Origin: Candidatus Campbellbacteria bacterium RIFOXYC2_FULL_35_25
GTDB taxonomy: Bacteria; Patescibacteriota; Minisyncoccia; Phycocordibacterales; UBA12079
Assembly: GCA_001774495.1 (NCBI GenBank)
Contig: MFAE01000005.1
Coordinates: 26,583-90,582, forward strand
DNA: 64,000 nt
Direction: 5' to 3'
Positions 9,248-52,943 of this stretch are shown here, piece after piece. The stretch's first letter is position 1. The number at the start of each line of letters is the position of its first letter. The position numbers and the translations under genes were made by a program. The notes under the pieces were generated by a model that was not told the DNA's origin, searched no databases, and was given only the letters and a program-made list of their open reading frames with translations.

Positions 9248-9345
9248 ACGTTTAATTATATATTAATTAGTAAGTGGGTGGTAGGAATAAATTAAAAAAG
9301 GTTTTAACTAAAAACTATCAACTATAAACTATAAACTAAACAAAT

Positions 9346-15315: not shown

Positions 15316-15600
15316 AACAACTCCTCCTTATACTCAATATTTGACTAAGATGAACATCTCAAAAAATCTATAGATATAGTAATACTAATTGACTCATTTG
15401 TAAATAGTAAGAAAAAATTTTGAGAAGGCTATAACAACGAAAAACAAGGCGAATTTTGACTCCGTCAAAATTCGCCTTGTTACTTAATACTTATTACTTA
15501 ATACTGGGGATAAAAATCTTCGATTTTTATCCCCACTTCCTCCCCACTTTAATATCTTTTAAAGGTTTGGGCATTTTTTTCATTGTGCTAGAATACTTCA

Positions 15601-16995
15601 ATGGCTGAAAAAATAAATAAAAATTTAAGAATCCCCCCTCAAGATATTGATTCGGAAAAGGCTCTTTTGGGTTCGGTTATGCTTAAAGCAGATTCCTTGT
15701 ATGACATTTTGGACTTCATCTCAAAAGATTGTTTTTACTCCGAAAAACATAGAATAATTTTTGAAGCCATGGTGGATCTTTTTTCAAAAAGAGAACCAAT
15801 TGACTTACTGACGCTTTCAACAAAATTAAAAGAAAGAAAAGCTTTGGAACAAGCCGGTGGAAATACTTACTTAACAGAACTAGTTAATTTTGTTCCTTCT
15901 TCTTCAAACATTGAATACTATGGAAAAACAGTCCACAAAAAATATATGATGAGACGTCTTATCGAGTCGTCCGAAGAAATCGCCGGGATTGGGTATAACG
16001 AAGAACACAATTTAGAAGAATCTTTGGACCGAGCGGAAAAAAGTGTGTTTGGAATTTCAGCTTCAATTGTTGCCAACAACTACATAAAAATAAAAGATGC
16101 TTTAGGAGAAGCCTTTGAAAGATTGAGTCGTCTCCATGAATCAAAAGACGAACTACGTGGAGTCCCTTCTGGATTTAAAGATTTGGATGATAAACTTTCT
16201 GGCTTTCAAAAATCAGACCTTATTATCTTAGCCGCTCGTCCTTCCATGGGTAAGACTGCTTTTGCATTGGACATCGCCAGAAAAGTTGCAGTTAACCATA
16301 ACATGGCTGTGGCAATTTTTTCTTTAGAGATGAGCTCCCAACAATTAGTAGATAGAATGTTAGCCGCTGATTCTAAAGTTGATGCTTGGAAACTAAGAAC
16401 GGGAAGACTGAACCAAGAAAGTGAGTTTGATTTGATAAGAGAATCTTTGGACACCCTTTCAAAGGCTCCTATTTTTATAGATGACCAGCCTGCTAACAAC
16501 ATCTTAAAAATGCGATCAATCGCAAGAAAATTGAAAAGACAGCATGATTTGAAACTGATTATTGTTGATTACCTCCAGCTTATGGCTCCTACTCAAACAA
16601 GGGCATCTGATAACATGGTTCAACAAGTAACAGAAATTTCTAGGTCTCTTAAGCACCTAGCCAGAGAATTAGATGTTCCTGTCATTGCTCTTTCACAGCT
16701 AAGCCGTGCCATTGAACAAAGAGGTGGACGCCCCAAACTTTCAGACTTGAGAGACTCTGGTTCTATTGAGCAAGACGCCGATGTTGTTATGTTTATTCAC
16801 AGAGAAAAAAATGAGGCTGGTGAAAAATCAAACATCACGGAAATATTAATCGAAAAACACAGAAACGGTCCGACTGGAAGAATTACATTAAATTTTGATG
16901 ATAAAAAAGCAACCTTCCAAAGTATTGATAAAAACTCCTTCGAAGATTTTACTGTCTCTCAAACAGGAGGTGATGAGGATACTGATGATTTCTAA
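15601..16995 (+). CDS. dnaB: replicative DNA helicase DnaB
   Basis: 464 aa, N-terminal DnaB domain, Walker A ARPSMGKTAF, RecA-like core. Confidence 0.95.
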   Translation: MAEKINKNLRIPPQDIDSEKALLGSVMLKADSLYDILDFISKDCFYSEKHRIIFEAMVDLFSKREPIDLLTLSTKLKERKALEQAGGNTYLTELVNFVPSSSNIEYYGKTVHKKYMMRRLIESSEEIAGIGYNEEHNLEESLDRAEKSVFGISASIVANNYIKIKDALGEAFERLSRLHESKDELRGVPSGFKDLDDKLSGFQKSDLIILAARPSMGKTAFALDIARKVAVNHNMAVAIFSLEMSSQQLVDRMLAADSKVDAWKLRTGRLNQESEFDLIRESLDTLSKAPIFIDDQPANNILKMRSIARKLKRQHDLKLIIVDYLQLMAPTQTRASDNMVQQVTEISRSLKHLARELDVPVIALSQLSRAIEQRGGRPKLSDLRDSGSIEQDADVVMFIHREKNEAGEKSNITEILIEKHRNGPTGRITLNFDDKKATFQSIDKNSFEDFTVSQTGGDEDTDDF

Positions 16996-18743: not shown

Positions 18744-18756
18744 TACTTAATACTTA

Positions 18757-19842
18757 CTACTCATTATTAGGTTTATCAATCACCAATTCCTCAACCTCTG
18801 AAGATTCTCCTGTGATTCTCAAAACATCCTTGTCTATCTTTTTGAATTCTTTTCTAGAGGTGTTGTAATGATTAACCGTTGTGGCCAAAGAATTTCCTAG
18901 TTTTGCATGATAATTATCATAAGCTTTAATATGCCCCTGCAGTTTTTCAACGTTTTTTATAATTTCTTTGGCTGATTCTTCTATCTGAAAAGCCTTAAAT
19001 CCTTGCAAAATTGTACTTAAATAGGCCACAAAAGTAGTAGGCGACACTATTATCACCTTTCTATCTCTATAAGCATATTCAATCAAACTCTTTGTGTTTA
19101 CCTTTACTGAGCCAACCTCATTTACCAACAAATCATAATAAATCGCTTCGGCGGGAATATACATAATAGCAAAAGGAAGTGTCCCCTCTTTGGGTTTTAT
19201 ATACTTTGAAGTTTCGTCAATCCTCTTTTTTAAATCATTTTTAAAATCTTTCTCAAGCTCTATCTTTCTGTTTTCGTTTTCTTCATTTGTAATTCTATTA
19301 TAATTATCTAGAGAAAATTTTGCATCGACTGGAATTATTCCATCTTTAGTAAAAATTACTGCATCAACTATATCTCCATCTTTGAAACTATATTGCATTT
19401 GAAAAGCTGTCGGAGGCAAAATATTATTTAAAATCAATTCCAGACCAGATTCCCCCAGGTTCCCTCTTTGTTTTTGATTCTTCAAAACTTTTTCAAGATT
19501 TTGAAGTTGTTCTGTCATGCTAAAAACTTGTTTGTTGGTTTCTTTTATTTCAGTCATTTGCCCAATCATCTCTTTTATAAGTTTTTGAGACTCTTGGGAC
19601 TGGTTTCGGGAGGATTCGTTCATCATCTTTGAAGACTCCCCTATTTTCATGTCCAATGTTTTTGTTAAATCCCGATTAGTCCTCATCAATTCATTTAACT
19701 GATTTTGGATAAGTAAAAAACTATTATCGTCCTTTTTTTCTTCACCATTGTTTTGAGTTTTTAGTAATTTAAACAAAAAATAGGTCATTGTGCCCACAGC
19801 AATCACTAAAAAAACAATTAAAACGATCAAAAGATTTTCCAT
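18757..19842 (-). CDS. rmuC: DNA recombination protein RmuC
   Basis: N-terminal TM, long coiled coil, C-terminal RmuC nuclease-like domain (MYIPAEAIYYDLL). Confidence 0.8.
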   Translation of the reverse strand: MENLLIVLIVFLVIAVGTMTYFLFKLLKTQNNGEEKKDDNSFLLIQNQLNELMRTNRDLTKTLDMKIGESSKMMNESSRNQSQESQKLIKEMIGQMTEIKETNKQVFSMTEQLQNLEKVLKNQKQRGNLGESGLELILNNILPPTAFQMQYSFKDGDIVDAVIFTKDGIIPVDAKFSLDNYNRITNEENENRKIELEKDFKNDLKKRIDETSKYIKPKEGTLPFAIMYIPAEAIYYDLLVNEVGSVKVNTKSLIEYAYRDRKVIIVSPTTFVAYLSTILQGFKAFQIEESAKEIIKNVEKLQGHIKAYDNYHAKLGNSLATTVNHYNTSRKEFKKIDKDVLRITGESSEVEELVIDKPNNE

Positions 19843-23053: not shown

Positions 23054-23364
23054 AAAAAAGTTTTCAACATTTTTAACTTATCAAAAAATAGTGTAGTATT
23101 CGCTGATGTTCCCAGAAAATAAAAACCGTAATATAAAAAATGAATATGATATCCTCTTAATTTTTATGTTAATGGGAACAGTAATCACCGGTGTTTTTTT
23201 ATTTAAAGTGTCATCTTTTGTTGCGGTAAAAAGCTTTGATTTATTGATGTTAGCAACGGTCAGTAGTTTTTAATTTTTTTATAGAGTAAAATATAAATAT
23301 CTTTTAAAAAAATATTTTATAAATTAATTCTATAAACTATCAACTATAGACTACAAACTTAAAT

Positions 23365-25040: not shown

Positions 25041-25104
25041 CCCTCGACACAGCAAAAGAAAAAAGACGAATAAATTCGTCTTTTTTCTTTTGCTGTGTCG
25101 AGGG
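25041..25104. repeat. 64-bp perfect palindrome (30-bp arms, loop taaa) whose right arm continues into the partial tRNA-Phe 3' copy
   Basis: ccctcgacacagcaaaagaaaaaagacgaa taaa ttcgtcttttttcttttgctgtgtcgaggg. Confidence 0.85.
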
Positions 25105-25148
25105 GCGGGCTCGGACCGCCGACCCTTCGCTCTTCAGGCGAATGCTCT
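25095..25148 (-). pseudogene. partial tRNA-Phe copy (3' 54 nt: acceptor 3' strand, T arm, anticodon arm, D-stem 3' strand), att-like direct repeat of intact gene
   Basis: 54/54 identity with 25289-25342 then divergence. Confidence 0.8.
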
Positions 25149-25290
25149 CCCTCCTATTGCCTGCTCGCCCTTCGGGACTCGCTTCGGCAATTTTTTGCTT
25201 CGCAAAAACCAGATAAAAAGCTTAAACGCTTTTTATCCAACTGAGCAACGCTCAGTTGCTAGAGCATTAATAAATTTAGTTTATACAGTG

Positions 25291-25794: not shown

Positions 25795-25935
25795 AAGAAA
25801 AATTATAGCAAAAATATCAACAAAGTAAATATAATTAATTGAATTTAAGTCCTAATAATGATATCTTTAAATTTGTTGCCATTACAAAATGTCTGCCTAG
25901 GCAGATTAAGTAGGCTTTAAATTTTTTATATTTGT

Positions 25936-26404: not shown

Positions 26405-26631
26405 TCATGGGTAGGGAGGAGAATCGGTCACGAATCACTAAGCCTTTTGTTCGTCCTCCGCTCGATCATTAGTTTATTGTAGGGAGAATCGCCTTCCAGT
26501 TCTAAGTTCAGCCTTCGCCCTTCGGGACTCGTCTTCACTAAGAACTCGCAGGCCCGTCGCTCGTATTTTTCTTTCGCTTCACTACAGAAAAATATACTTC
26601 GCTCTTTCCGATTCTCCCTACCCGCTACAAA
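26405..26631. repeat. tRNA-Gly-associated mosaic: two direct partial copies of the tRNA-Gly 3' end (26409-26427, 26478-26493), one inverted copy (26607-26625), CGGTCACGAATCACTAAG module (26425-26460) and TCGCCCTTCGGGACTCG module (26515-26531, also at 25165-25181)
   Basis: direct sequence comparison with tRNA-Gly 26675-26745 and tRNA-Phe locus. Confidence 0.75.
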
Positions 26632-26745: not shown

Positions 26746-26809
26746 ATAGATGAATTTTTAATTTCAAATTTCAATTCATTACTACAAACTACTCACTACT
26801 CACTACCAA

Positions 26810-27187
26810 CTAATCAAACCATCCTAAAAACTTGCTCCAAATTCCATCACCTTTACCATCATCTTCTTTTTGCTTGGTGTCTTTGGGATCAATTATCAAA
26901 ACCATTTTTTCTCCACTTTTTGCCACACCAAATTTGCTTCTTATCTCTCCCTCCTCTCCTTCTTTCGTTTTCAAAATTTCAATTTCAGACGATAGATTCT
27001 CTCCTCTTTCTTTTAACTCTTCTAATTCCCGTTGAGCAAGCTCTTTATTAATTCTTGTAATTTTTGATTCCCTGTAAGCGGTCCAAACTCCTTTTAAAAT
27101 AAAAAGGGTCACCAAGGCAAGCAAAAAAATAGTAACCTTTGAATAAATAATTCTTCTGACTACTTGTTTTTCTTCAAAATCAAACAT
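26810..27187 (-). CDS. FtsB/DivIC-like septum formation initiator
   Basis: 125 aa, N-terminal TM, coiled coil, IRSKFGVAKSGEKMVLI matching FtsB C-terminal motif. Confidence 0.6.
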   Translation of the reverse strand: MFDFEEKQVVRRIIYSKVTIFLLALVTLFILKGVWTAYRESKITRINKELAQRELEELKERGENLSSEIEILKTKEGEEGEIRSKFGVAKSGEKMVLIIDPKDTKQKEDDGKGDGIWSKFLGWFD

Positions 27188-28254: not shown

Positions 28255-28293
28255 TAAAAAGGTTTAGCAACAGTTGTTGCTAAACCTTTTTTT
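28255..28293. terminator. hairpin ggtttagcaacagttgttgctaaacc + T-run
   Basis: between convergent 27999..28223 and leuS. Confidence 0.7.
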
Positions 28294-28326
28294 ACTTACT
28301 ACTTGATACTTGCTACTTATTACTTA

Positions 28327-30777
28327 CTACTCATTACTCTCTACCACAATGTTTAAAATTCTATTTTTGACGTAAATGATCTTTTTGGGTTCTTTTCCTT
28401 CAAGCCATTTTTTTATCAATTCGCTTGCAAGAGCTTTCTTGCTAACATCCTCTTCCTCAGTTCCCTCTTCTATTTCTATAGTCTCTCTAACTTTTCCATT
28501 TACCTGAACGGCTATTTTGTGGATACTGTCTTTAGACAAGCTCTCATCAAATTTTGGCCAACTTTCATCTTGAATCAAACTTTCATTTCCCAACTGGTGC
28601 CAAAGCTCTTGTGTAATATGCGGAGCAAAAGGAGAAAGTATTGTTAAAAATGTTTGATAATCTTCTTTTGAGATACTTGATTTTTTTACTGTGTTTATAA
28701 ATTTCATCATATCAGAAACAGCAGTATTATAAGCCAACTCATCTATACCTTTCGTCATTCTTTTAATTGTCTTATGCAATTCCCTAACAACATCTTCAGA
28801 ACTTTTTTCTTTTAGTTCATCTTTGGTAAACCAAACTTTTTCCAAAAATCTATAAACTCCCACTATATTATCTTCATTCCACATTACCTCGTCTTCCAAT
28901 GGTGCAGCAAAAAGCATATAAGTCCTTACGGAATCAGCCCCAAAACTTTTAACCATATCATCTGGATTAACCACATTACCCTTTGATTTGCTCATTTTCT
29001 TGCCCTGCGCGTCCAAAACCATCCCTTGGTGCCTTAGCTTCAAAAACGGCTCATCAAAGTCTAGAAGGCCTATTTTGTTCATCGCTTTTGTGAAAAAACG
29101 AGCAAATAATAAGTGCATATAAGTATGTTCGGCCCCACCAATATACAAATCAACCGGCAACCATTTCTTACGAATTTCTGAACAAAACTCAGAATCATTT
29201 AGAGCATCTGGATATCTTAAAAAGTACCAAGAAGAATCAACAAAAGTGTCCATGGTGTCATATTCGGGAGTCCAACCTTTTCCAAAAATTTTTTCAGTTC
29301 TTTCTTTAAATTCTTTTGAAGCCCCTAATGGAGAAACTCCCTTTGGTTTAAAATCAACATCGATGGGAAGAATCCAAGGAAGATGCTCTTCAGGAACCAA
29401 GGTCGCCTTACCCTCGGGAGAATAAACGATCGGAATCGGACAACCCCAATATCTCTGTCGAGAAATTGACCAATCTCTTAAACGATAATTGGTTGTCATT
29501 TCCCCACCAACAAATTCTGTAATTTTCTTCTTAGCTTCTTCGGAGTTCATTCCATTGAATTGTCCTGATTCCATAAGTAACCCAAAACCTATCGTTGCAA
29601 AACCAGACTCACGAGCACTTTTTATTTTTAATTCTGCTAATCCTGGAATAATTTCGTCAACAGATTTAACCTCAGCTATAACTGGCTTAATTTCAATATC
29701 TTTTTGTAATGCAAACTGAAGGTCTCTATCATCATGAGCCGGCACCGCCATAATCGCACCAGTTCCATAGTTAACCAACACATAATCAGCAATGAAAACT
29801 GGTATTTCTTCGCTGTTAGCTGGATTAATAGCCGAAATTCCCTCAAGCTTCACCCCTGTCTTCTCTTTACCCTCTATTCTCTCCATTTCTGTCTTATTTT
29901 GAGCTTTAATCCCGTACTCCTCAACCTCGTCCCAGTTTGTAATTTGGTCCTTCAATTCGGAAACAAGCGAATGTTCTGGGGCAAGCACCATATAAGTAGC
30001 ACCAAACAAAGTGTCAGGACGAGTAGTAAATACCTCTATTTCGTTCGCTGTTAGCTGTGATCTGTGAGCTGTCAGCTTAAACTTAATCTTTGCTCCTTCA
30101 CTCTTCCCTATCCAATTTCTCTGATTTTTTTTAGTATGTTCTGGCCAATCAACTTTGTCTAAGTCATTAATTAAATCATCGGCGAAATCTGTAATCTTGA
30201 AAAACCACCCTGGTATTTTTTTCTGTTCAATTTGGGTTCCGCATCTTTCACACTCACCATTAAGAACTTGTTCGTTCGCAATTACAGTCTGGCAAGAAGA
30301 ACACCAATTTGCTTTTTGTGTACTTTGATAAACTAAATCATTTTTATAAAATTGTTGAAAAATCCATTGAGTCCATTTGTAGTATTTTGGATCAGAGGTT
30401 ACTGCCTGTTCATCAAAATCATAATTAAGACCCAACATCTTCATTTGTTTAATATAATTGCTGATATTTTTTTCAGTAGTTTGGGCGGGGTGAACTCCTG
30501 TTTTTATTGCAAAGTTTTCAGCCGGCAAACCAAAGGCGTCAAACCCTTGAGGGTGCAAAACATTAAATCCCTGCATCTTTTTGAAACGGTAATATACATC
30601 ACTCGCGGTATAACTTTCAGTATGTCCCATATGAAGACCATCACCGGACGGATAAGGAAACATATCAAGCATGTAAAACTTATTTTTAGTATCGTCTTTG
30701 TCTATTTTAGAAACCTTATTTTCCTCCCAAATCTTTTGCCATTTCCCCTCAATATCATTGTGATTGTATTTTTCCAT
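28327..30777 (-). CDS. leuS: leucyl-tRNA synthetase
   Basis: 816 aa, HMGH and KMSKS motifs, editing (CP1) domain. Confidence 0.95.
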   Translation of the reverse strand: MEKYNHNDIEGKWQKIWEENKVSKIDKDDTKNKFYMLDMFPYPSGDGLHMGHTESYTASDVYYRFKKMQGFNVLHPQGFDAFGLPAENFAIKTGVHPAQTTEKNISNYIKQMKMLGLNYDFDEQAVTSDPKYYKWTQWIFQQFYKNDLVYQSTQKANWCSSCQTVIANEQVLNGECERCGTQIEQKKIPGWFFKITDFADDLINDLDKVDWPEHTKKNQRNWIGKSEGAKIKFKLTAHRSQLTANEIEVFTTRPDTLFGATYMVLAPEHSLVSELKDQITNWDEVEEYGIKAQNKTEMERIEGKEKTGVKLEGISAINPANSEEIPVFIADYVLVNYGTGAIMAVPAHDDRDLQFALQKDIEIKPVIAEVKSVDEIIPGLAELKIKSARESGFATIGFGLLMESGQFNGMNSEEAKKKITEFVGGEMTTNYRLRDWSISRQRYWGCPIPIVYSPEGKATLVPEEHLPWILPIDVDFKPKGVSPLGASKEFKERTEKIFGKGWTPEYDTMDTFVDSSWYFLRYPDALNDSEFCSEIRKKWLPVDLYIGGAEHTYMHLLFARFFTKAMNKIGLLDFDEPFLKLRHQGMVLDAQGKKMSKSKGNVVNPDDMVKSFGADSVRTYMLFAAPLEDEVMWNEDNIVGVYRFLEKVWFTKDELKEKSSEDVVRELHKTIKRMTKGIDELAYNTAVSDMMKFINTVKKSSISKEDYQTFLTILSPFAPHITQELWHQLGNESLIQDESWPKFDESLSKDSIHKIAVQVNGKVRETIEIEEGTEEEDVSKKALASELIKKWLEGKEPKKIIYVKNRILNIVVESNE

Positions 30778-30812
30778 ATCTAAATATATTACAACAAAAA
30801 CATGAAAAACAA

Positions 30813-30852
30813 ACTATACTAAAATTTACGCGACCGCGTAAATTTTAGTATA
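30813..30852. repeat. 40-bp sequence, copy 1 (38-bp perfect palindrome with 18-bp arms; extended to 23-bp arms 30810-30857); identical to 31529-31568
   Basis: actatactaaaatttacgcgaccgcgtaaattttagtata; 75 bp downstream of stop of 30928..31482. Confidence 0.9.
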
Positions 30853-30927
30853 GTTTGTTTTTTCCTTCATTTTATTACTTCTCTTTATTATTTCCCTTTA
30901 TTATTTATTTTTCTTTATTATAAATAA

Positions 30928-31482
30928 CTACTTAGTTAAACCAAAAACTTCTTTTAACCACTCTTCGTTTTCTATTCTATTTACTTCCATATACAAAACA
31001 TCTTCATCAGCAAAAAAATTTGTTTTAAGTAGAAAAATAAGCTCTTCACACTCATAAGGAAGAACCCATACACTATTTTGTAATTTAATAAACCCTAATC
31101 TATCTAAATTATGACGAAGTAATTCTCGAAGTCTCTTTTTTTTCTCTGGAATATCAAAAATAATAACTCTCCATTTTTTATCCCAATTCTTTGGCTTTTC
31201 TATTTCTATTTCTTCTAATTCATATTGGGAAATCATTTCCCTACCCTTTTTTGTAAGTTCTATAAATTCAACACTGCCTTTTTTTACTTTTTTTATTAAA
31301 CCTTTCTTTAATAGTGTTTTTACAGAATTATTCATATAATATTTTTCTTTCGACCAACCCTTCTTTTTTGGTAAAAACATTTTTAAAGATTGCAAAGCAT
31401 TTGGAGCTAAAACAGCCATACCAACCAAGCCGGTAATCGCTATTGTGGATAAAATTATTTTTTGATAATTTATATTTTTCAT
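30928..31482 (-). CDS. membrane-anchored wHTH + Cas2/VapD/PaaX_C-like (ferredoxin-fold) domain protein; orphan, no cas1 or CRISPR array
   Basis: N-terminal TM; LKKGLIKKVKKGSVEFIELTKKGREM wHTH-like; WRVIIFDIPEKKKRLRELLRHNLDRLGFIKLQNSVWVLP resembles Cas2 core (RVLVFFDLP...GF.MLQ.SV). Confidence 0.6.
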   Translation of the reverse strand: MKNINYQKIILSTIAITGLVGMAVLAPNALQSLKMFLPKKKGWSKEKYYMNNSVKTLLKKGLIKKVKKGSVEFIELTKKGREMISQYELEEIEIEKPKNWDKKWRVIIFDIPEKKKRLRELLRHNLDRLGFIKLQNSVWVLPYECEELIFLLKTNFFADEDVLYMEVNRIENEEWLKEVFGLTK

Positions 31483-31528
31483 TTTTTATTATCTTTTATA
31501 TAAAAATATTATATATTTATATAATATC

Positions 31529-31568
31529 ACTATACTAAAATTTACGCGACCGCGTAAATTTTAGTATA
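31529..31568. promoter_or_regulatory. 40-bp sequence, copy 2 (identical palindrome), 46 bp upstream of start codon of 30928..31482: candidate operator
   Basis: perfect identity with 30813-30852; position in promoter region; AT-rich promoter between it and ATG. Confidence 0.5.
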
Positions 31569-31610
31569 TCTTGATAAGTAAGATCGAGATTGTTAAGCAT
31601 CAAAAAAACA

Positions 31611-31633
31611 AAAACCGCCAAAGGCGGTTTTTG
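31611..31633. terminator. hairpin aaaaaccgcc aaa ggcggttttt
   Basis: downstream of 31695..32249 stop, preceded on minus strand by stop-rich TAGTAGCGAGTATTAAGTAATAAGTAG. Confidence 0.7.
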
Positions 31634-31694
31634 TTTACTTTCTACTTATTACTTAATACTCGCTACTAGAAATTTAAATAAAAATTTTCAATTT

Positions 31695-32249
31695 TTATTT
31701 AAATTTCTTTATTCCAAGCCATATCAAAACCAACAAGGCTAGCCCTAAAATTCCAACTTGCAAATATTCACTAGCAAACTGCCAATATCTAACAGATGCA
31801 ACGATGAAAGTAAGAACTCCACCAAGTGAAAATGCTACCGAAATGACTGCTTGAGTAGACATCATGAATCCGATTATAATCGAAATAACACCTAAAGCAA
31901 TCAGAGTCATAAAGACATTCCTTTCATATTTTTCTAGAGCTGACCGATATTCTTGGTTACAGGTAAAGTAAAGATCACAATACCCAGGGTTCATAACTTC
32001 TCCATTTTCTCCTCTAATAACTGGTTCAGATTCTGGAGCATTGATAGCCTTAATATTTTCATTCCATTGTCCTCCTTGTTCTAAACACATATCCTTTGTA
32101 TCAATTTTTTCAATTACCTGCTTTTCTTGGCAGAAATTGGTGTACTCGGGAGAATTGTAAGCAACCTTCATTGCATAGGCAAAGAAAAGATTAAGAACGA
32201 CGATGATTCCTAAAATTAATGCCCATTTTAATATTTTGTTATTTTCCAT
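31695..32249 (-). CDS. hypothetical membrane protein with extracytoplasmic Cys-rich domain
   Basis: 184 aa, N-terminal TM, 6 Cys in loop, 2-3 C-terminal TM; heptamer SSR 95 bp upstream. Confidence 0.5.
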   Translation of the reverse strand: MENNKILKWALILGIIVVLNLFFAYAMKVAYNSPEYTNFCQEKQVIEKIDTKDMCLEQGGQWNENIKAINAPESEPVIRGENGEVMNPGYCDLYFTCNQEYRSALEKYERNVFMTLIALGVISIIIGFMMSTQAVISVAFSLGGVLTFIVASVRYWQFASEYLQVGILGLALLVLIWLGIKKFK

Positions 32250-32343
32250 ATTATTTATATTATTGAGATTAATAAAAATTCTAATAATAAACTAGAAATT
32301 GAATAGAGAATCATGAATTAAGAATTCTGAATCATGATTCTTT

Positions 32344-32410
32344 ATTCGTGATTCGTGATTCGTGATTCGTGATTCGTGATTCGTGATTCGTGATTCGTGA
32401 TTCGTGATTC
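32344..32410. repeat. heptanucleotide tandem repeat (ATTCGTG) x 9.5, perfect
   Basis: attcgtg units 32344-32406 plus attc; intergenic between SPFH stop (32432) and start of 31695..32249. Confidence 0.95.
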
Positions 32411-32431
32411 TGTTTTGTTAATAAAAAACTA

Positions 32432-33208
32432 CTATTTTTTACTAACAAAATTAGAATATCCTTTTATAGCTTCCAAAACTTCTGTAGGAATCATCCAGAT
32501 GGTTGTATTTGATTGATCAGAGCTTAAATCGTTAATTGCTTGCAATGTTCTCAAATGCATAGCCCCAGGGGTAGCGGAAAGTTTTGCAGCCGCTAGAGCT
32601 AGGTTGTCAGCAGCAATTCGATCACCGTCAGCTTTAATAATAACAGCTCTCTTTTCTCTTTCAGCTTCAGCTTCTTTTGAAATAGTTCTCTTCAAGTCTT
32701 CTGGGATAATAACATCCTTTAGTTCAACCGATTCGATATCGATTCCCCAAGGATCGGTGAGGGAGTCAACTCTTTCTTTAATCTGCAAAGCTATTTCAGC
32801 TCTTTTCTGCAACAAATCATCCAAACTTCTTTCTCCCACAAAGTTTCTCATCGTTGTTTGAGCAACCTGTGAAGTAGCATAGTAGTAATCTTCTACTTCA
32901 AGAACAGCCTTAGAAGCCTCAACAATTTTATAATAAACAACGGCATTGATCTTTACCGGGATATTATCCTTTGTAATCACTTCTTGATCGGGAACATCTA
33001 CTGCTTTTGTTCTTATATCGACCTTTGTCATAGATTGAAAAATTGGAATAACAAGTCTCCATCCTGGTTGTTTTATTCCTGTAAATTTACCAAGGGTAAA
33101 CATAACCCCTCTTTGATACTGATTCACCTGCCTCAATATCAATACCAAAATTACAATAATAACTGGTATGTATGTTAACAGGTTTGGACCTCCTAAAAAT
33201 GTATTCAT
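32432..33208 (-). CDS. SPFH/band-7 (stomatin/prohibitin-like) domain protein
   Basis: 258 aa, N-terminal TM, SPFH core, coiled-coil tail; G-less CTATAGACTATAAACTAAA leader before ATG. Confidence 0.85.
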   Translation of the reverse strand: MNTFLGGPNLLTYIPVIIVILVLILRQVNQYQRGVMFTLGKFTGIKQPGWRLVIPIFQSMTKVDIRTKAVDVPDQEVITKDNIPVKINAVVYYKIVEASKAVLEVEDYYYATSQVAQTTMRNFVGERSLDDLLQKRAEIALQIKERVDSLTDPWGIDIESVELKDVIIPEDLKRTISKEAEAEREKRAVIIKADGDRIAADNLALAAAKLSATPGAMHLRTLQAINDLSSDQSNTTIWMIPTEVLEAIKGYSNFVSKK

Positions 33209-33372
33209 GGTTAATTTAGTTTATAGTCTATAGTTTTTAGTCTATAGAAAAATATAGTATTAATAATATAATTATAACACAGTCTAGTTTTTAGTTGATA
33301 GTTGATAGTTTTTAGGAAAAAGAAAAAGCCCGTCCCGGAAAAAATTTCATGAGTCTCTCAATTCCTTGCTTT

Positions 33373-33438
33373 TTTTAAAAGAAATTTTTCTGACAAAAAT
33401 GACGACCGTCATTTTTATCAGAAAAATTTCTTTTAAAA
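33373..33438. repeat. 66-bp near-perfect AT-rich palindrome (32-bp arms, 1 mismatch, centre gacg ac cgtc)
   Basis: tttaaaagaaatttttctgacaaaaatgacg / cgtcatttttatcagaaaaatttcttttaaaa. Confidence 0.85.
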
Positions 33439-33485
33439 AACCATGGTGATCTATCCTAACCAATTTAAATATTTTACGAGAAAAA

Positions 33486-33953
33486 AGCCCGTCCCGGAAA
33501 CCGGGGCGGGCTACAAAACAACAAAAAGATAGCTCGGGATCGCTGGGTGGCGGTTTGAAAATTTCATTGACCGTCGCCTTCAGGGCGGTTTTTTACGTCG
33601 CAGGCGTCTCTTTTTGGTGTTTTTCTATTTGGAAACCTCCCCATATAAACAGAGAAGCTCCACCCATAAGAGCAAAACAAATATAGAAAAAAAGCAGGGC
33701 AAAATGATGAAAGAAAAAATCATTTAACCAATTTCGATAAAAATCATTTAACAGAAGAATATTAAGATCTGAAAAAAACAATACTGATACCATCAAGAAA
33801 AAACCAATGGCCACAGAGCAATAAGCAATAGACTTCATAGCACTCCTCCTTTCTTTTTTATACTTTTTTATGAAAGACAAAAAATTCTAACCATAGACTA
33901 ACAACATAGACGAGGGTTGTCAATCATTTTGGCTTCTTTTACAATTATTTAGA
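33486..33953. repeat. 468-bp direct repeat, copy A (apparently 100% identical to 34461-34928); contains gene 33593..33880 and GC hairpin AGCCCGTCCCGGAAACCGGGGCGGGCT
   Basis: base-by-base comparison of the two stretches; identical 95-aa translations. Confidence 0.9.
33593..33880 (-). CDS. hypothetical small membrane protein (2-3 TM), copy A
   Basis: 95 aa; identical to 34568..34855. Confidence 0.5.
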   Translation of the reverse strand: MSFIKKYKKERRSAMKSIAYCSVAIGFFLMVSVLFFSDLNILLLNDFYRNWLNDFFFHHFALLFFYICFALMGGASLFIWGGFQIEKHQKETPAT

Positions 33954-34085
33954 AATTAAGAATTTAAAATTAATTTGATTTTAAAATTGGATGCGGAACG
34001 AAGGTTTGAGGTAGTTATTTGGAAAAAGAAAAAGCCCGTCCCGGATAACCGGAACGGGCTGCAAAACAACATTTGGTGTTTTTGT

Positions 34086-34292
34086 TTATAAAAAAAGTTT
34101 TTCACCAAAAGCGTTAATCCCTTTGCCGTCAGGGTAATGAACCCTTTTACATACCGGGCACGCCGGCATATCCTCAAATTGAGGATTTGAACATCACCCC
34201 CCTCCAGAGACCATCATACTTTTTGAAGGAGAATCTTGATCTATTGCCTCCCCACAGTCAGTACATGGAAATTGAAAAGTATCTTGTCCCAC
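34086..34292 (-). pseudogene. small zinc-ribbon ORF (CTDCG...CPVCK) with strong SD (AAGGAGG-6nt-GTG) interrupted by in-frame TGA at 34194-34196 next to a G6 tract
   Basis: translation MGQDTFQFPCTDCGEAIDQDSPSKSMMVSGGG*CSNPQFEDMPACPVCKRVHYPDGKGINAFGEKLFL*; upstream TTGACA promoter-like. Confidence 0.35.
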
Positions 34293-34460
34293 TCTTACCT
34301 CCTTATAATGGCTCTGGTTTTTTGTACCGGGTTAAATAATCTATCGTTAGATTAACAGATCAGATTATATTGTCAACAAAAAATTAATTTGATTTTAAAA
34401 TTGGATGCAGAACGAGGAGTTGAGGTAGTTTTTAGTTGATAGTTTTTAGGAAAAAGAAAA

Positions 34461-34928
34461 AGCCCGTCCCGGAAACCGGGGCGGGCTACAAAACAACAAA
34501 AAGATAGCTCGGGATCGCTGGGTGGCGGTTTGAAAATTTCATTGACCGTCGCCTTCAGGGCGGTTTTTTACGTCGCAGGCGTCTCTTTTTGGTGTTTTTC
34601 TATTTGGAAACCTCCCCATATAAACAGAGAAGCTCCACCCATAAGAGCAAAACAAATATAGAAAAAAAGCAGGGCAAAATGATGAAAGAAAAAATCATTT
34701 AACCAATTTCGATAAAAATCATTTAACAGAAGAATATTAAGATCTGAAAAAAACAATACTGATACCATCAAGAAAAAACCAATGGCCACAGAGCAATAAG
34801 CAATAGACTTCATAGCACTCCTCCTTTCTTTTTTATACTTTTTTATGAAAGACAAAAAATTCTAACCATAGACTAACAACATAGACGAGGGTTGTCAATC
34901 ATTTTGGCTTCTTTTACAATTATTTAGG
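34461..34928. repeat. 468-bp direct repeat, copy B
   Basis: identical to 33486-33953. Confidence 0.9.
34568..34855 (-). CDS. hypothetical small membrane protein, copy B (identical to 33593..33880)
   Basis: 95 aa identical protein. Confidence 0.5.
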   Translation of the reverse strand: MSFIKKYKKERRSAMKSIAYCSVAIGFFLMVSVLFFSDLNILLLNDFYRNWLNDFFFHHFALLFFYICFALMGGASLFIWGGFQIEKHQKETPAT

Positions 34929-35083
34929 CCGAAATACCCAGCCATAGCAATCAGCGGGAAACATGGGTACAGAACTTTTTTCAGTTTCCTAAACCGTGTC
35001 GGCCCAGGAGGATGAGTCAGCCCCCAAATTGATCCCACAAAACCGACAAGAAAAACAATAACGCATGCTGATTTAATATCCAT
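34895..35083 (-). CDS. hypothetical small protein (weak)
   Basis: 62-aa ORF whose 3' end overlaps the duplicated segment. Confidence 0.25.
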   Translation of the reverse strand: MDIKSACVIVFLVGFVGSIWGLTHPPGPTRFRKLKKVLYPCFPLIAMAGYFGLNNCKRSQND

Positions 35084-35293
35084 ACCTTCTCCTTTTTCGC
35101 CACTATGTTAAAAAGCTTCCCAAAATTCTTGTTCTATAATAACGTCTATTTTACTAATTGTCAATACTTGTATTAAGTTAATTTCAAAATTAAATGCAGA
35201 ACGAGGAGTAAGAGTAAAATTTTGTGAGACGTATTTTCAATACGGTGAACAAAATTTTGCGAATTACGACAAAGCTCTGCGCCAATTTTGGAA

Positions 35294-40004: not shown

Positions 40005-40252
40005 AGGTTTAGTCGTTAGTTATTAGTTTATAGTTTTTAGAAAATTTTTAAAAACAAAAACTTATTTGCAATTAATTTATAATTAATAAAATAATAACAC
40101 AGGAGGATAGAAAATAAAAATAAAAAACACTTCTAGTTTTTTTCATACTTAAATTTATATAGGCATGAAAAAAACCGCCGAAGCGATTTCTTTCATAGTA
40201 CCTATTAAGTAGCAAGCTAAATAATAAGTACTTTAATTAGTATACTAAAGTG

Positions 40253-46289: not shown

Positions 46290-46594
46290 GGTTCTGAATT
46301 GCTTCGAAATTACTCCCCGAGGCCTCACCTCTCCCGTCGTTTCGCTTCGCTCCACTTCTCCTCGAGGACTTAAAATTTTTTAGGAAAAGTTTTAAGCAAC
46401 GACGGGCCTCCGTCCGTAATTTCTCGCAAAGACGACGAAAGGCAGAGCCTTTCGTCGTCTTTTAAAAATTAATTTATTAAAAATTTTTAAACCCCCACCC
46501 CTTTCTTTTCCAAAACAAAGGTGTGGGGGTTTAAAAATTAAAAATTAAAAATTTCAGATGTTTTTTCTACTCACTACTCACTACCAACTACTCA

Positions 46595-47527
46595 CTATTC
46601 CTGTGCAACTTTTTCTATACTAGCAGAAACTAATTTTCCCACGTCTTTGAAACGGCCTTCTCGGGAAGAACCTAAAACAGAAACAATGATAGGATGACCT
46701 ATGCCAATATCAAAAGCGATAACTAAATTTCCTCCAGCCAAATCTGTAAAGCCGGTTTTAGAAGCAATTATTCCGGGGATGGCTTCCGCGTATTGATTGG
46801 TATTGTAAACAGTATGAGTAAAATCTTTTGATTTTATTTCCAAACTCGAATATTTTGTAGCCTCAAGAATCTGCGGTTTCTCTTTTATGATCTGCCCCAT
46901 TAGCATAGCCACATCTTTTGCCGAACCATAGGCCCCACCAACATCCTGACTTACATCTAACCCAGATTCGTTTAAAAAATAAGTTTGGATTAATCCTAAA
47001 TTTTGAGCTTTTTGGTTCATTTCTTTAATAAACATTTCTTCCTGTGTTTGTCCCTCTCCTGTATTAATAGAACCTATGATAGAGGCAAGGGCGTGCGCTC
47101 CATCATTAGATGAAGATACTAAAGTAAAGTCCAAAACATCAGCGAGTCTCCATTTTTCACCCATCAAGAAACCACTATCCCCTTCTTCGTTGATGTCCTG
47201 ACTGTCTATGGTAACAATGATTCCTTCTGGAACTAATTCTGAAACAACTAGTGCTGTCATTAACTTTGTTAAAGATGCCAAAGGTAACTGAGCTTCCCCA
47301 TTCATTGAATAAATTATTTTATTTTCGTAAGTGTCCCAAACGAAAGCTGATTTTGCTTCCAAAACCAAGTCTTCAAATGGATCTATTTTTTCTTCCGCAA
47401 TATTGACCTCTGATTCAATTATTATTTCTTCTTTTTTACTTAAAAAATAAAAAAGAAAAACGCCCACCAAAACGACAGTGGTTGTTATTAGAACAATAAT
47501 TTTATTTTTATTTTTTGCGAAATTCAC
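46595..47527 (-). CDS. D-alanyl-D-alanine carboxypeptidase (S11, PBP5-like)
   Basis: 310 aa, SLTK, SSN, KTGFT motifs, N-terminal TM. Confidence 0.8.
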   Translation of the reverse strand: MNFAKNKNKIIVLITTTVVLVGVFLFYFLSKKEEIIIESEVNIAEEKIDPFEDLVLEAKSAFVWDTYENKIIYSMNGEAQLPLASLTKLMTALVVSELVPEGIIVTIDSQDINEEGDSGFLMGEKWRLADVLDFTLVSSSNDGAHALASIIGSINTGEGQTQEEMFIKEMNQKAQNLGLIQTYFLNESGLDVSQDVGGAYGSAKDVAMLMGQIIKEKPQILEATKYSSLEIKSKDFTHTVYNTNQYAEAIPGIIASKTGFTDLAGGNLVIAFDIGIGHPIIVSVLGSSREGRFKDVGKLVSASIEKVAQE

Positions 47528-48109: not shown

Positions 48110-48217
48110 AATATTTTAGTCGATAGTTTATAGACTATAGTTTATAGTATAAAATTATATTATTAAAGTATAAATTATCTAAATTCTATAGACTATCAAC
48201 TAAAAACTATAGACTGT

Positions 48218-52858: not shown

Positions 52859-52943
52859 AATTTGGTTTTTAGTTGTTAGTTATTAGTATTCTTCAGAATT
52901 TTTTTAGCTGTAAGCTGTCGGCTGTGAGCTGTAAGCTTTTCTA

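What the first reader, a model, noticed from the sequence alone, without database searches (positions are those of the whole stretch)
32344..32410. Perfect heptanucleotide tandem repeat (ATTCGTG x 9.5) in a promoter region: candidate phase-variation switch
The repeat consists of 9 perfect copies plus a partial unit. The unit length of 7 is not a multiple of 3, and the tract lies 95-160 bp upstream of the start of 31695..32249. That gene encodes a membrane protein with an extracytoplasmic Cys-rich domain. The tract also lies immediately downstream of the SPFH gene. Copy-number slippage in such tracts changes promoter-element spacing or phasing in classic contingency loci. Such tracts are not something I would expect in a streamlined CPR-like genome, which makes it stand out.
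Basis: seen in the sequence. Interest (0 to 1): 0.6.

Follow-up and report, generated by a model that had tools for sequence, protein, structure and literature searches.

The report
Variable 7-base repeat between two genes
The perfect 7-base repeat is real and seems to vary in copy number between near-identical populations, but it is one of about twenty such arrays filling gaps between genes in this tiny groundwater bacterium, so it looks like an ordinary slippage-prone microsatellite rather than a proven on/off switch.

Summary
Window 32344-32410 is (ATTCGTG)x9 plus ATTC, which reads (GAATCAC)n on the gene strand. It lies 21 nt after the SPFH stop codon and 95-161 nt before the ATG of the 184-aa membrane gene.

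The array is not an oddity in this genome (Candidatus Campbellbacteria, Rifle aquifer). Period-7 arrays pervade the intergenic DNA: 19 arrays at lag 7, against 0-1 at other lags and 0 in shuffles. Two position-specific families stand out. AACTA-type arrays abut the start codons of housekeeping genes that lack a Shine-Dalgarno site. AAGTA-type arrays sit just after stop codons.

SPFH and the membrane gene are a conserved pair, bracketed by terminators with none between them. Relatives have spacers of 21-142 nt and no GAATCAC array.

Ten contigs with identical proteins carry 9 copies (seven contigs), 8, 4, or an unresolved gap. These were the only indels within aligned stretches across about 13 kb. 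Assembly collapse cannot be excluded.

The array lies upstream of any plausible core promoter. It forms no significant RNA hairpin, has no cognate binder gene nearby and matches no Rfam family.

Verdict: a young, slippage-prone heptanucleotide microsatellite, a new member of a known kind. A switch function is unproven.

The parts
32344..32410 (-). Perfect heptanucleotide array. On the gene (minus) strand it reads (GAATCAC)x9 with a partial unit; on the plus strand it reads (ATTCGTG)x9 plus ATTC.
   Evidence: Exact string match and TRF. Copy number is 9, 8 or 4 in other contigs.
32290..32343 (-). Degenerate heptamer tail on the gene-proximal side of the perfect array: GAATAAA GAATCAT GATTCAG AATTCTT AATTCAT GATTCTC TATTCAA. 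It contains the palindrome GAATCATGATTC and inverted ATGATTC units.
   Evidence: TRF rows 32308-32337 and 32324-32410, and the sequence itself. It is identical in all ten strain contigs.
32432..33208 (-). SPFH/Band_7 gene, the upstream cistron.
   Evidence: Pfam PF01145, E = 2.2e-41; ORF.
31695..32249 (-). 184-aa membrane protein with a Cys-containing extracytoplasmic segment, the downstream cistron. It has no Pfam family. It is the conserved partner of SPFH in relatives.
   Evidence: ORF; no Pfam hit. Orthologues follow SPFH directly in L017, L018, L019 and L277.
33384..33427 (-). Terminator-like hairpin upstream of the SPFH promoter region. It bounds the transcription unit on its 5' side.
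   Evidence: Scan.
33271..33279 (-). TGTTATAAT, an extended -10 element and the likely promoter of the SPFH-membrane gene unit.
   Evidence: Read from the sequence. This is an inference and was not tested.
33282..33315 (-). AACTA-type heptamer array just upstream of the SPFH -10 element.
33217..33247 (-). AACTA-type heptamer array forming the Shine-Dalgarno-less leader that abuts the SPFH ATG.
31636..31667 (-). AGTA-type heptamer array (AGTAGCG AGTATTA AGTAATA AGTAGAA AGTAAAC) between the membrane-gene stop codon and its terminator.
   Evidence: The 94%-identical relative L276 keeps it with one SNP.
31606..31636 (-). Intrinsic terminator hairpin with a T-run, ending the unit.
   Evidence: Scan.
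32278..32283 (-). TAGAAT, the best candidate -10 element for an internal promoter. It is weak, has no TG extension and has a poor -35. If it is used, the perfect array spans about -73 to -139.
   Evidence: Read by eye. The consensus scan found no minus-strand promoter in the spacer.
9305..9343 (+). Another member of the genome-wide heptamer population: an AACTA-type array abutting the ATG of rpmA (L27).
52860..52937 (-). An 85-nt intercistronic spacer (PBP to Mur ligase) made almost entirely of two heptamer arrays, ACAGCTN x5 and AACTAAN x4. It is the closest analogue in the window of the flagged spacer.
28293..28338 (-). AAGTA-type array at and after the leuS stop codon, next to a bidirectional terminator.

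Best explanation
The tract is a young, slippage-prone heptanucleotide microsatellite. It expanded inside the untranslated spacer of a two-gene unit (SPFH followed by its partner membrane protein) in a Candidatus Campbellbacteria genome.

It is the longest and only perfect member of a genome-wide population of period-7 arrays that fill intergenic and intercistronic spacers in this lineage.

Proposed mechanism (inferred): strand misalignment during replication adds or removes 7-bp units. The rate rises with the number of perfect copies. This would explain why only this array shows length differences between strains, while the older, degenerate arrays are length-stable.

The tract is probably transcribed as about 65 nt of unstructured RNA between the two cistrons. 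Unit changes alter spacer length, not a reading frame or the spacing of core promoter elements. Any effect on expression of the downstream gene is therefore likely graded and small, not an on/off switch.

Shown here: the tract, its context, the genome-wide period-7 excess, absence from sister species, and copy-number differences among assemblies.

Inferred: slippage as the cause, co-transcription, and a weak or absent regulatory effect.
For: - The tract is perfect and its coordinates are as stated.
- Period 7 is a property of the genome. Intergenic autocorrelation peaks at lag 7 (0.332, against 0.2995 at lag 6 and 0.293 at lag 8), with echoes at lags 14 and 21. Coding DNA shows no such peak.
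- There are 19 lag-7 arrays, against 0-1 for lags 4-12 and 0 in shuffles.
- The pattern ACTA-N3 x3 gives 37 hits against 0.19 expected. AGTA-N3 x3 gives 31 hits against 0.20 expected.
- Arrays flank housekeeping genes: L27, YqeY, ScpB, a Mur ligase, LeuRS and LepA.
- The unit behaves as an operon. Terminators lie at 33427-33384 and 31636-31606 and none lies between the genes. The gene pair is conserved with spacers of 85, 142, 21 and 32 nt in L017, L018, L019 and L277.
- The array is lineage-specific and young. No GAATCAC array occurs in any relative. L017 instead has AACTAAA x5 at the ATG, its close relative L277 lacks even that, and L278 has TAGTTGT/TAACTGT units.
- Ten contigs encoding identical proteins show 9, 8 or 4 copies, plus one with a 100-N gap inside the tract. 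Flanks are identical. The 35-nt and 7-nt gaps were the only gaps inside aligned stretches across 8-13 kb.
- The pure array is unstructured as RNA (-2.4 kcal/mol, against -5.1 for shuffles).
- The literature describes the same kind. Heptanucleotides are the most abundant long simple-sequence-repeat class in many prokaryotes, and polymerase slippage has been proposed as the cause (Mrazek 2007, as summarised in PMC4679880, and PMC4692102).
Against: - Copy-number differences come from short-read assemblies. The 4-copy contig (a MEGAHIT assembly, L001) is nearly identical in length and content to a 9-copy JGI contig (L002). It could be a de Bruijn graph collapse. The 8-copy allele and the scaffold gap are open to the same doubt.
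- Nine copies in 8 of 11 sequences also shows the tract is fairly stable.
- Unit choice is not random. (GAATCAC)x4 occurs in more than 120 metagenome contigs and 11 viral contigs, while three composition-matched permutations gave 0. This hints at sequence-specific selection or a mutational preference that simple slippage does not explain.
- The sister arrays are strictly placed and oriented: AACTA at start codons, AAGTA after stop codons. This argues that at least some arrays in this genome are functional, so neutrality of this one is assumed rather than shown.
- No transcript data exist to confirm co-transcription.
Confidence: 0.65

Rival explanations
1. It is a true contingency locus, a graded phase-variation 'rheostat' like the Haemophilus influenzae hmw1A (ATCTTTC)n tract. 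Slippage changes the number of heptamers in the transcribed leader or upstream region of the membrane gene, and expression falls or rises with length.
For: A heptamer tract upstream of an envelope protein gene, with apparent length polymorphism among near-clonal populations. The hmw system shows that a transcribed heptamer repeat can set expression level (PMC12721329). The unit has no stop codon on the sense strand and the pure tract is unstructured.
Against: The hmw mechanism needs a long stable hairpin between the repeats and a complementary arm. Here the array plus its tail folds no better than dinucleotide shuffles (z = -0.53, centroid unpaired). The tract is not between the -35 and -10 elements and no consensus promoter was found in the spacer. 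Sister arrays flank housekeeping genes, so proximity to a membrane gene carries little weight. Nine copies is the mode in 8 of 11 sequences. The tract is absent from all relatives.
Confidence: 0.15
2. It is a functional RNA-level spacer or leader element of the same system as the AACTA and AAGTA arrays. In this view, heptamer arrays act as modular, unstructured untranslated elements, for example ribosome loading without a Shine-Dalgarno site, or insulation between cistrons. The GAATCAC array would then serve translation or stability of the downstream cistron.
For: AACTA-type arrays abut the ATG of six genes that lack a Shine-Dalgarno site, always in sense orientation. AAGTA-type arrays follow stop codons in sense orientation. 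Ten of 14 arrays give stop codons in all three sense frames, against 11% of control windows. The TAACTGA repeats of Beggiatoaceae have the same placement and a translational role was proposed for them (PMC4679880). The PBP to Mur ligase spacer is likewise built from arrays.
Against: The flagged array has a different unit, ends 95 nt from the ATG and has no sense-strand stop codons. The 95 nt next to the ATG carry no AACTA array. Relatives manage with 21-32 nt spacers. No binder or mechanism was identified.
Confidence: 0.12
3. It is an array of contiguous protein-binding heptads, an operator or centromere-like site. The model is the 7-10 contiguous WATCACW heptads bound cooperatively by the ribbon-helix-helix omega repressor of inc18 plasmids (recalled from memory). 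The unit AATCAC(G) nearly matches that heptad.
For: The unit contains ATCAC at a 7-bp period, followed by inverted ATGATTC units and the palindrome GAATCATGATTC. (GAATCAC)n arrays recur in many unrelated contigs while permuted units do not.
Against: No ribbon-helix-helix, omega or ParG-like ORF was found among the ten ORFs around the array. No protein family recurs next to 131 such arrays. The variant GAATGAC, which breaks the ATCAC core, is as frequent (9 hits) as GAATCAC (11), and the omega consensus AATCACA gives only 4. The same genome has about 20 arrays with unrelated units.
Confidence: 0.04

Closest known systems
Heptanucleotide long simple sequence repeats of prokaryotes. Sources: Mrazek, Guo and Shah 2007, as summarised in PMC4679880 and PMC4692102; cyanobacterial STRR heptamers; Xanthomonas GGGAATC and Nostoc GGGGAYT arrays (PMC4692102).
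   Same: Head-to-tail 7-nt units in intergenic DNA. There are many arrays per genome, and period 7 is strongly favoured over neighbouring periods. Length and sequence vary between close relatives while position between the same genes is kept. Function is unknown and polymerase slippage has been proposed.
   Different: The host is a small-genome Patescibacteria (CPR) lineage, for which my two literature searches found no such report. The units are AT-rich rather than G-rich, so they cannot form G-quadruplexes. The flagged unit GAATCAC is none of the named families.
TAACTGA direct repeats of marine Beggiatoaceae, some Cyanobacteria and Bacteroidetes (MacGregor 2015, PMC4679880).
   Same: Heptamer arrays of 2-6 copies lie within a few nucleotides upstream of start codons, in forward orientation. 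They stand in place of a Shine-Dalgarno site and occur before housekeeping genes, including ribosomal protein genes. The AACTAWW arrays of this window show the same placement.
   Different: The unit differs: AACTAWW rather than TAACTGA. The flagged GAATCAC array does not share the placement, because it ends 95 nt from the ATG. Only its sister arrays do.
Haemophilus influenzae hmw1A/hmw2A (ATCTTTC)n phase variation (PMC12721329).
   Same: A 7-nt unit upstream of an envelope protein gene, probably transcribed, with copy number that varies.
   Different: The hmw system needs at least about 10 repeats paired to a G-rich arm in a long hairpin processed by RNase III. No significant hairpin is predicted here. 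No expression data exist. The tract here is intercistronic and sits in a genome full of similar arrays.
Omega repressor heptad operators of inc18 plasmids (WATCACW x7-10; recalled from memory, not checked in a paper).
   Same: Contiguous 7-bp units with an ATCAC core, in mixed direct and inverted orientation.
   Different: No ribbon-helix-helix gene was found nearby. The ATCAC core is not required for such arrays to be common. The location is chromosomal and intercistronic.

Membership tests
Heptanucleotide LSSR / STRR-like intergenic arrays | Head-to-tail tandem copies of a 7-nt unit, longer than chance would give. | tested here: met
   9.6 perfect copies; TRF score 139; 0 arrays in shuffles.
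Heptanucleotide LSSR / STRR-like intergenic arrays | Non-coding location. | tested here: met
   The tract lies in the 182-nt spacer between two ORFs. The only ORF through it is a 38-aa ORF with a TTG start, which is mechanical and overlaps the SPFH 3' end.
Heptanucleotide LSSR / STRR-like intergenic arrays | Period 7 over-represented genome-wide relative to other periods. | tested here: met
   19 arrays at lag 7, against 0-1 at lags 4-12. There is an autocorrelation peak at lags 7, 14 and 21 in intergenic DNA only.
Heptanucleotide LSSR / STRR-like intergenic arrays | Rapid turnover of length and sequence between close relatives. | tested here: met
   The orthologous spacer carries GAATCAC x9 (window), AACTAAA x5 (L017), nothing (L277 and L019) or TAGTTGT/TAACTGT units (L278).
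SSR contingency locus (promoter or 5'-UTR phase variation) | Tract length varies within or between clonal populations. | tested here: inconclusive
   Contigs with identical flanks carry 9 (seven contigs plus the window), 8, 4, or an N-gap inside the tract. These are assemblies and not reads, so collapse is possible.
SSR contingency locus (promoter or 5'-UTR phase variation) | Tract placed where unit changes alter expression: between -35 and -10, over a regulator site, in a structured 5'-UTR, or in an ORF. | tested here: not met
   The tract is not in an ORF. No consensus promoter was found in the spacer, and the best candidate -10 by eye lies 60 nt downstream of the tract. The hairpin is not significant (z = -0.53).
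SSR contingency locus (promoter or 5'-UTR phase variation) | Expression of the linked gene changes with copy number. | not testable with these tools
   This needs reporters, or paired metatranscriptome and metagenome data.
SSR contingency locus (promoter or 5'-UTR phase variation) | Preferential association with surface or host-interaction genes. | tested here: not met
   The downstream gene is a membrane protein. However, sister arrays flank rpmA, yqeY, scpB, a Mur ligase gene, leuS and lepA.
TAACTGA-type start-codon-proximal heptamer repeats | Unit is TAACTGA. | tested here: not met
   The unit is GAATCAC. Sister arrays are AACTAWW.
TAACTGA-type start-codon-proximal heptamer repeats | Array lies within a few nucleotides of the start codon, in forward orientation, replacing the Shine-Dalgarno site. 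| tested here: not met
   The flagged array ends 95 nt from the ATG. The feature is met by six AACTA arrays elsewhere in the window.
Omega-type heptad operator | At least 7 contiguous WATCACW heptads. | tested here: inconclusive
   The unit AATCACG matches 6 of 7 positions, in 9 contiguous copies. The consensus itself is recalled from memory.
Omega-type heptad operator | A cognate ribbon-helix-helix repressor gene in cis. | tested here: not met
   No such Pfam hit in the 10 neighbouring ORFs. No recurrent neighbour gene at 131 arrays.
Known structured RNA families (Rfam) | A match at or above a family's gathering score. | tested here: not met
   Only tRNAs reach threshold in the window. Matches over 31500-33600 are sub-threshold hairpin noise.

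The most novel reading that the evidence does not exclude
This Campbellbacteria lineage uses heptamer arrays as a modular system of untranslated elements. Sense-oriented AACTAWW arrays would serve as leaders without a Shine-Dalgarno site at housekeeping genes. Sense-oriented AAGTANN arrays would serve as all-frame stop trailers ahead of terminators. The GAATCAC tract would be a newly expanding member whose copy number tunes expression of the SPFH partner gene. That would amount to a genome-wide, slippage-evolvable layer of post-transcriptional control in a bacterium with a minimal genome.
Probability: 0.18. Interest if true: 0.6.

Novelty: new member of a known kind. Interest (0 to 1): 0.35.

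Why it matters
The flagged tract on its own is an ordinary microsatellite. Its context is what matters. A CPR/Patescibacteria genome, usually described as streamlined, devotes a visible share of its scarce intergenic DNA to period-7 arrays. Some of these are strictly placed and oriented relative to start and stop codons. If they are functional, they would bear on how genes without a Shine-Dalgarno site are translated in these organisms. They would also extend the unexplained heptamer-repeat phenomenon (cyanobacterial STRR, TAACTGA repeats of Beggiatoaceae, Xanthomonas GGGAATC) to a new phylum. If they are neutral, they are a marker of an unusual replication-slippage bias and useful strain-typing loci for Rifle Campbellbacteria populations.

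Tried and rejected
(1) An hmw-like RNA hairpin. The spacer folds at -31.2 kcal/mol (z = -2.0), but the only confident helix is an AU hairpin at the SPFH stop codon. The array plus its tail gives z = -0.53 against dinucleotide shuffles, with an unpaired centroid. My mononucleotide-shuffle z of -2.9 was therefore a composition effect. Rejected.

(2) An omega/ribbon-helix-helix heptad operator. No such gene is nearby and no neighbour gene recurs. The core-broken unit GAATGAC is as common as GAATCAC. Rejected as unsupported.

(3) A known RNA family. Rfam at gathering and E-value thresholds gave nothing.

(4) A small ORF through the array. The only one is a 38-aa ORF with a TTG start that overlaps the SPFH 3' end. 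I did not treat it as a gene.

(5) More alleles from JGI metagenomes. The scan with the flank pattern CACGAATAAAGAATCATGATTCAG found nothing, even though JGI contigs with that sequence exist (L002, L006, L007, L009). That collection is evidently not exhaustive.

(6) A closer relative. P0005 (94% identical) sits on a 1.5-kb contig where the membrane gene is fused to a ribosomal L3 fragment, so the upstream spacer could not be read.

(7) An assembly artefact as the origin of the tract itself. Rejected, because eight independent assemblies agree on 9 copies.

(8) A lineage-specific unit. Rejected, because (GAATCAC)x4 occurs in more than 120 mostly high-GC metagenome contigs.

Full report
**Observation**

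Window 32344-32410 is exactly (ATTCGTG)x9 followed by ATTC. Both flanking genes lie on the minus strand, where the tract reads (GAATCAC)n. Tandem Repeats Finder carries the period-7 register on, with degeneration, to 32324-32410 (12.6 copies, 91% matches, score 139). It also reports a GAATCAT-like array at 32308-32337. On the gene-proximal side of the perfect block there is therefore an older, decayed heptamer tail: GAATAAA GAATCAT GATTCAG AATTCTT AATTCAT GATTCTC TATTCAA.

The tract begins 21 nt after the stop codon of an SPFH/Band_7 gene (32432..33208; Pfam E = 2.2e-41). It lies 95-161 nt upstream of the ATG of a 184-aa membrane protein that has no Pfam family (31695..32249). Shuffled sequence gives no such arrays.

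**Organism**

The membrane protein is 100% identical to a hypothetical protein of Candidatus Campbellbacteria bacterium RIFOXYC2_FULL_35_25. The nearest SPFH homologues in species-representative genomes are Paceibacterota and Patescibacteria MAGs, at 89% identity or less. The window has 35.6% GC.

**The tract is not an exception in this genome**

The TRF table lists dozens of period-7 arrays. Same-base autocorrelation in intergenic DNA peaks at lag 7 (0.332, against 0.2995 at lag 6 and 0.293 at lag 8), with echoes at lags 14 and 21. Coding DNA shows only the 3-nt periodicity.

A simple detector requiring at least 17 of 21 lag matches finds 19 arrays at lag 7. It finds 0-1 at each other lag from 4 to 12, and none in shuffles. 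That is 0.30 arrays per kb. Across 589 kb of other Patescibacteria-type loci the density is 0.044 per kb, although period 7 is still the commonest there.

Two unit families dominate the window. The pattern ACTA-N3-ACTA-N3-ACTA gives 37 hits against 0.19 expected. The pattern AGTA-N3-AGTA-N3-AGTA gives 31 hits against 0.20 expected.

Their placement is strikingly regular:

- AACTAWW arrays in sense orientation run right up to the ATG of genes that lack a Shine-Dalgarno site. These genes are rpmA (L27), yqeY, the SPFH gene itself, ORF 39777, scpB and a Mur ligase gene.
- AAGTANN arrays in sense orientation follow the stop codons of leuS, the membrane gene, divIC, an S11 peptidase gene and ORF 18757. 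They usually sit just ahead of a terminator hairpin.
- Because 7 is coprime to 3, a unit containing TAA or TAG gives stop codons in all three frames. Ten of 14 arrays do so on the sense strand, against 11% of control intergenic windows.
- Minor families also occur, namely ACAGCTN, ATAGCTN and AATTTWT. One ACAGCTN array lies inside the leuS coding region.

The flagged tract shares the period with these arrays but not the unit. It is the only array with more than three perfect copies.

**Local architecture**

Terminator-like hairpins lie at 33427-33384 and 31636-31606 on the minus strand. None lies between SPFH and the membrane gene, and the consensus scan finds no minus-strand promoter in the 182-nt spacer.

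Upstream of SPFH the sequence reads: AACTA array, then TGTTATAAT (an extended -10 element), then a second AACTA array, then the ATG. After the membrane gene it reads: AGTA array, then terminator.

In the three nearest species the same two genes are adjacent, with spacers of 85, 142 and 21 nt (L017, L018 and L019). In L277 the spacer is 32 nt. The pair therefore behaves as an operon, and the tract is most likely transcribed within a bicistronic mRNA. This is an inference.

By eye, the best candidate internal promoter is TATTCA-16-TAGAAT, with its -10 element at 32283-32278. It is weak, and it would place the perfect tract at roughly -73 to -139. In neither reading does a 7-bp change alter the spacing between the -35 and -10 elements or a reading frame.

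**Comparative evidence**

Ten contigs from different samples and assemblies encode identical SPFH and membrane proteins. Their spacers are identical to the window except in the tract:

| Copies of GAATCAC | Contigs |
|---|---|
| 9 | seven contigs (plus the window) |
| 8 | L010 |
| 4 | L001 |
| unresolved (100-N scaffold gap inside the tract) | L003 |

Across 8-13 kb of alignment, the 35-nt and 7-nt gaps at the tract were the only gaps inside aligned stretches. All the degenerate arrays kept their length. This fits a slippage rate that depends on the number of perfect copies.

It is not proof, for two reasons. These are short-read assemblies. Also, the 4-copy MEGAHIT contig (57,226 nt) is almost the same contig as a 9-copy JGI contig (57,473 nt), so collapse in a de Bruijn graph is a real possibility.

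Between species the spacer turns over completely:

- L017 has AACTAAA x5 abutting the ATG and no GAATCAC array.
- Its close relative L277 lacks even that array.
- L278 has a TGGTATAAT promoter and TAGTTGT/TAACTGT units.
- L019 has a bare 21-nt spacer.
- Downstream of the membrane gene, L017 has a period-9 array where the window has the AGTA heptamers.

Arrays are thus born and lost quickly at the same positions.

**Is the unit special?**

These contigs are mostly high-GC (mean 59%), so the unit is not specific to this lineage. They hold 245 lag-7 arrays in 597 kb, against 18 or fewer at any other lag. In other words, they come from heptamer-rich genomes.

Counts of x4 arrays in viral contigs:

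| Unit | Contigs |
|---|---|
| GAATCAC | 11 |
| GAATGAC | 9 |
| AATCACA | 4 |
| GGATCAC | 3 |
| TAACTGA | 32 |
| Three composition-matched permutations | 0, 0, 0 |

Unit preference is therefore real, but it does not depend on an ATCAC core. That result, together with two others, removes support for the idea that the tract is an omega-repressor-like heptad operator. First, no ribbon-helix-helix ORF lies near the tract. Second, no neighbour gene recurs at 131 such arrays. I raised this idea from memory of the WATCACW heptads of inc18 plasmids.

**RNA structure**

The pure tract is unstructured (-2.4 kcal/mol, against -5.1 for shuffles). Inverted ATGATTC units in the tail can pair with the repeats. 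However, the resulting fold is no better than dinucleotide shuffles (z = -0.53) and its centroid is unpaired. Across the whole spacer the only confident helix is an AU hairpin at the SPFH stop codon. No Rfam family matches.

The H. influenzae hmw mechanism requires a long repeat-containing hairpin processed by RNase III (PMC12721329). It is not supported here.

**Comparison with what is known**

Heptanucleotide repeats are reported as the most abundant long simple-sequence-repeat class in many prokaryotic genomes, and polymerase slippage has been proposed as the cause. Specific families have been described in cyanobacteria (STRR; GGGGAYT), in Xanthomonas (GGGAATC), and in Beggiatoaceae, Cyanobacteria and Bacteroidetes (TAACTGA) (PMC4679880; PMC4692102).

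The TAACTGA repeats sit within a few nucleotides of start codons, replace Shine-Dalgarno sites and precede housekeeping genes. The AACTAWW arrays of this window behave the same way. I found no paper in the searchable library that links heptamer repeats with Patescibacteria.

The flagged tract passes every test for 'heptanucleotide long simple sequence repeat'. It fails, or cannot be tested for, the defining features of a contingency locus other than a suggestive length polymorphism.

**Verdict**

The tract is a real, young, probably slippage-prone heptanucleotide microsatellite in the intercistronic spacer of the SPFH-membrane gene unit. It is one of many period-7 arrays in this Campbellbacteria genome. 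It is a new member of a known kind.

The phase-variation reading is partly supported: the tract shows apparent variability, but its position does not fit and no effect on expression has been shown.

The more interesting lead lies outside the flagged coordinates. It is the ordered, orientation-specific placement of the AACTA and AAGTA arrays at start and stop codons of housekeeping genes.

Noticed in passing
window 9305-9343, 23330-23363, 33217-33247, 40009-40036, 48117-48148, 52860-52888: Sense-oriented AACTAWW heptamer arrays run right up to the ATG of genes that lack a Shine-Dalgarno site (rpmA, yqeY, SPFH, ORF 39777, scpB, a Mur ligase gene). The pattern ACTA-N3 x3 gives 37 hits against 0.19 expected. 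[quoted passage not shown]
   Followed up: partly
window 28293-28338, 31636-31667, 26781-26812, 46566-46597, 18744-18768: Sense-oriented AAGTANN (AGTA-type) heptamer arrays sit directly after stop codons, usually ahead of a terminator hairpin. They give stop codons in all three frames. The pattern AGTA-N3 x3 gives 31 hits against 0.20 expected.
   Followed up: partly
window 30043-30077 (inside leuS, minus strand): A five-unit ACAGCTN heptamer array lies inside the LeuRS coding sequence (peptide KLTAHRSQLTANE), just before the TTRPDT motif. The same unit family occurs in the intergenic array at 52906-52937, and as GGCTGTC units upstream of SPFH in L017.
   Followed up: no
window 33482-33952 and 34457-34927: These two segments are 100% identical and lie 975 bp apart, forming a tandem duplication. 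Each copy carries a 95-aa ORF (33593..33880 and 34568..34855; weak T4SS_pilin hit). Other strain contigs have one copy (L008) or a roughly 300-nt indel (L001 and others). The roughly 2 kb from 33209 to 35293 has almost no called genes and many GC-rich hairpins.
   Followed up: no
window 30853-31528: The PaaX_M/Cas2-like gene (30928..31482) is absent from contigs L008 and L009. It is flanked by near-identical palindromic hairpins (tatactaaaatttacgcgNNcgcgtaaattttagtata) at about 30805-30862 and 31529-31570. This looks like a cassette-type presence/absence polymorphism.
   Followed up: no
L097-L216 (metagenome) and L217-L227 (viral contigs): (GAATCAC)x4 or longer occurs in more than 120 mostly high-GC contigs that are themselves rich in other heptamer arrays (245 lag-7 arrays in 597 kb). 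Arrays often end within 40 nt of a start codon. Six lie directly upstream of proteins with a prepilin-type N-terminus. Three permuted units gave 0 hits in viral contigs, while GAATGAC gave 9 and TAACTGA gave 32.
   Followed up: partly
L152 4150-4260: In an unrelated 40%-GC contig, (GAATCAC)x4 begins inside the 3' end of a glycosyltransferase-like ORF. It is followed by ATTCATA/ATTCATG units in inverted register, then an ATG. This is the same 'array plus inverted degenerate tail' layout as in the window.
   Followed up: no
window 15570-15603, 25795-25815, 30778-30800: Several genes look leaderless, with a TATAAT-like -10 element 6-8 nt before the ATG: 15601+ (TAGAAT-6-ATG), 25495- (TATAAT-7-ATG) and leuS (TAATAT-8-ATG).
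   Followed up: no
window 25095-25169; about 24900 and 26428-26443: ARAGORN calls a second tRNA-Phe at 25095-25169 that Rfam does not confirm. A repeated element containing TCACGAATCACTAA (two GAATCAC-like units) occurs near both tRNA clusters.
   Followed up: no
L276 67-861: In a 94%-identical relative, the membrane gene is fused in frame to an N-terminal ribosomal protein L3 fragment on a 1.5-kb low-coverage contig. This is probably a chimeric assembly.
   Followed up: no
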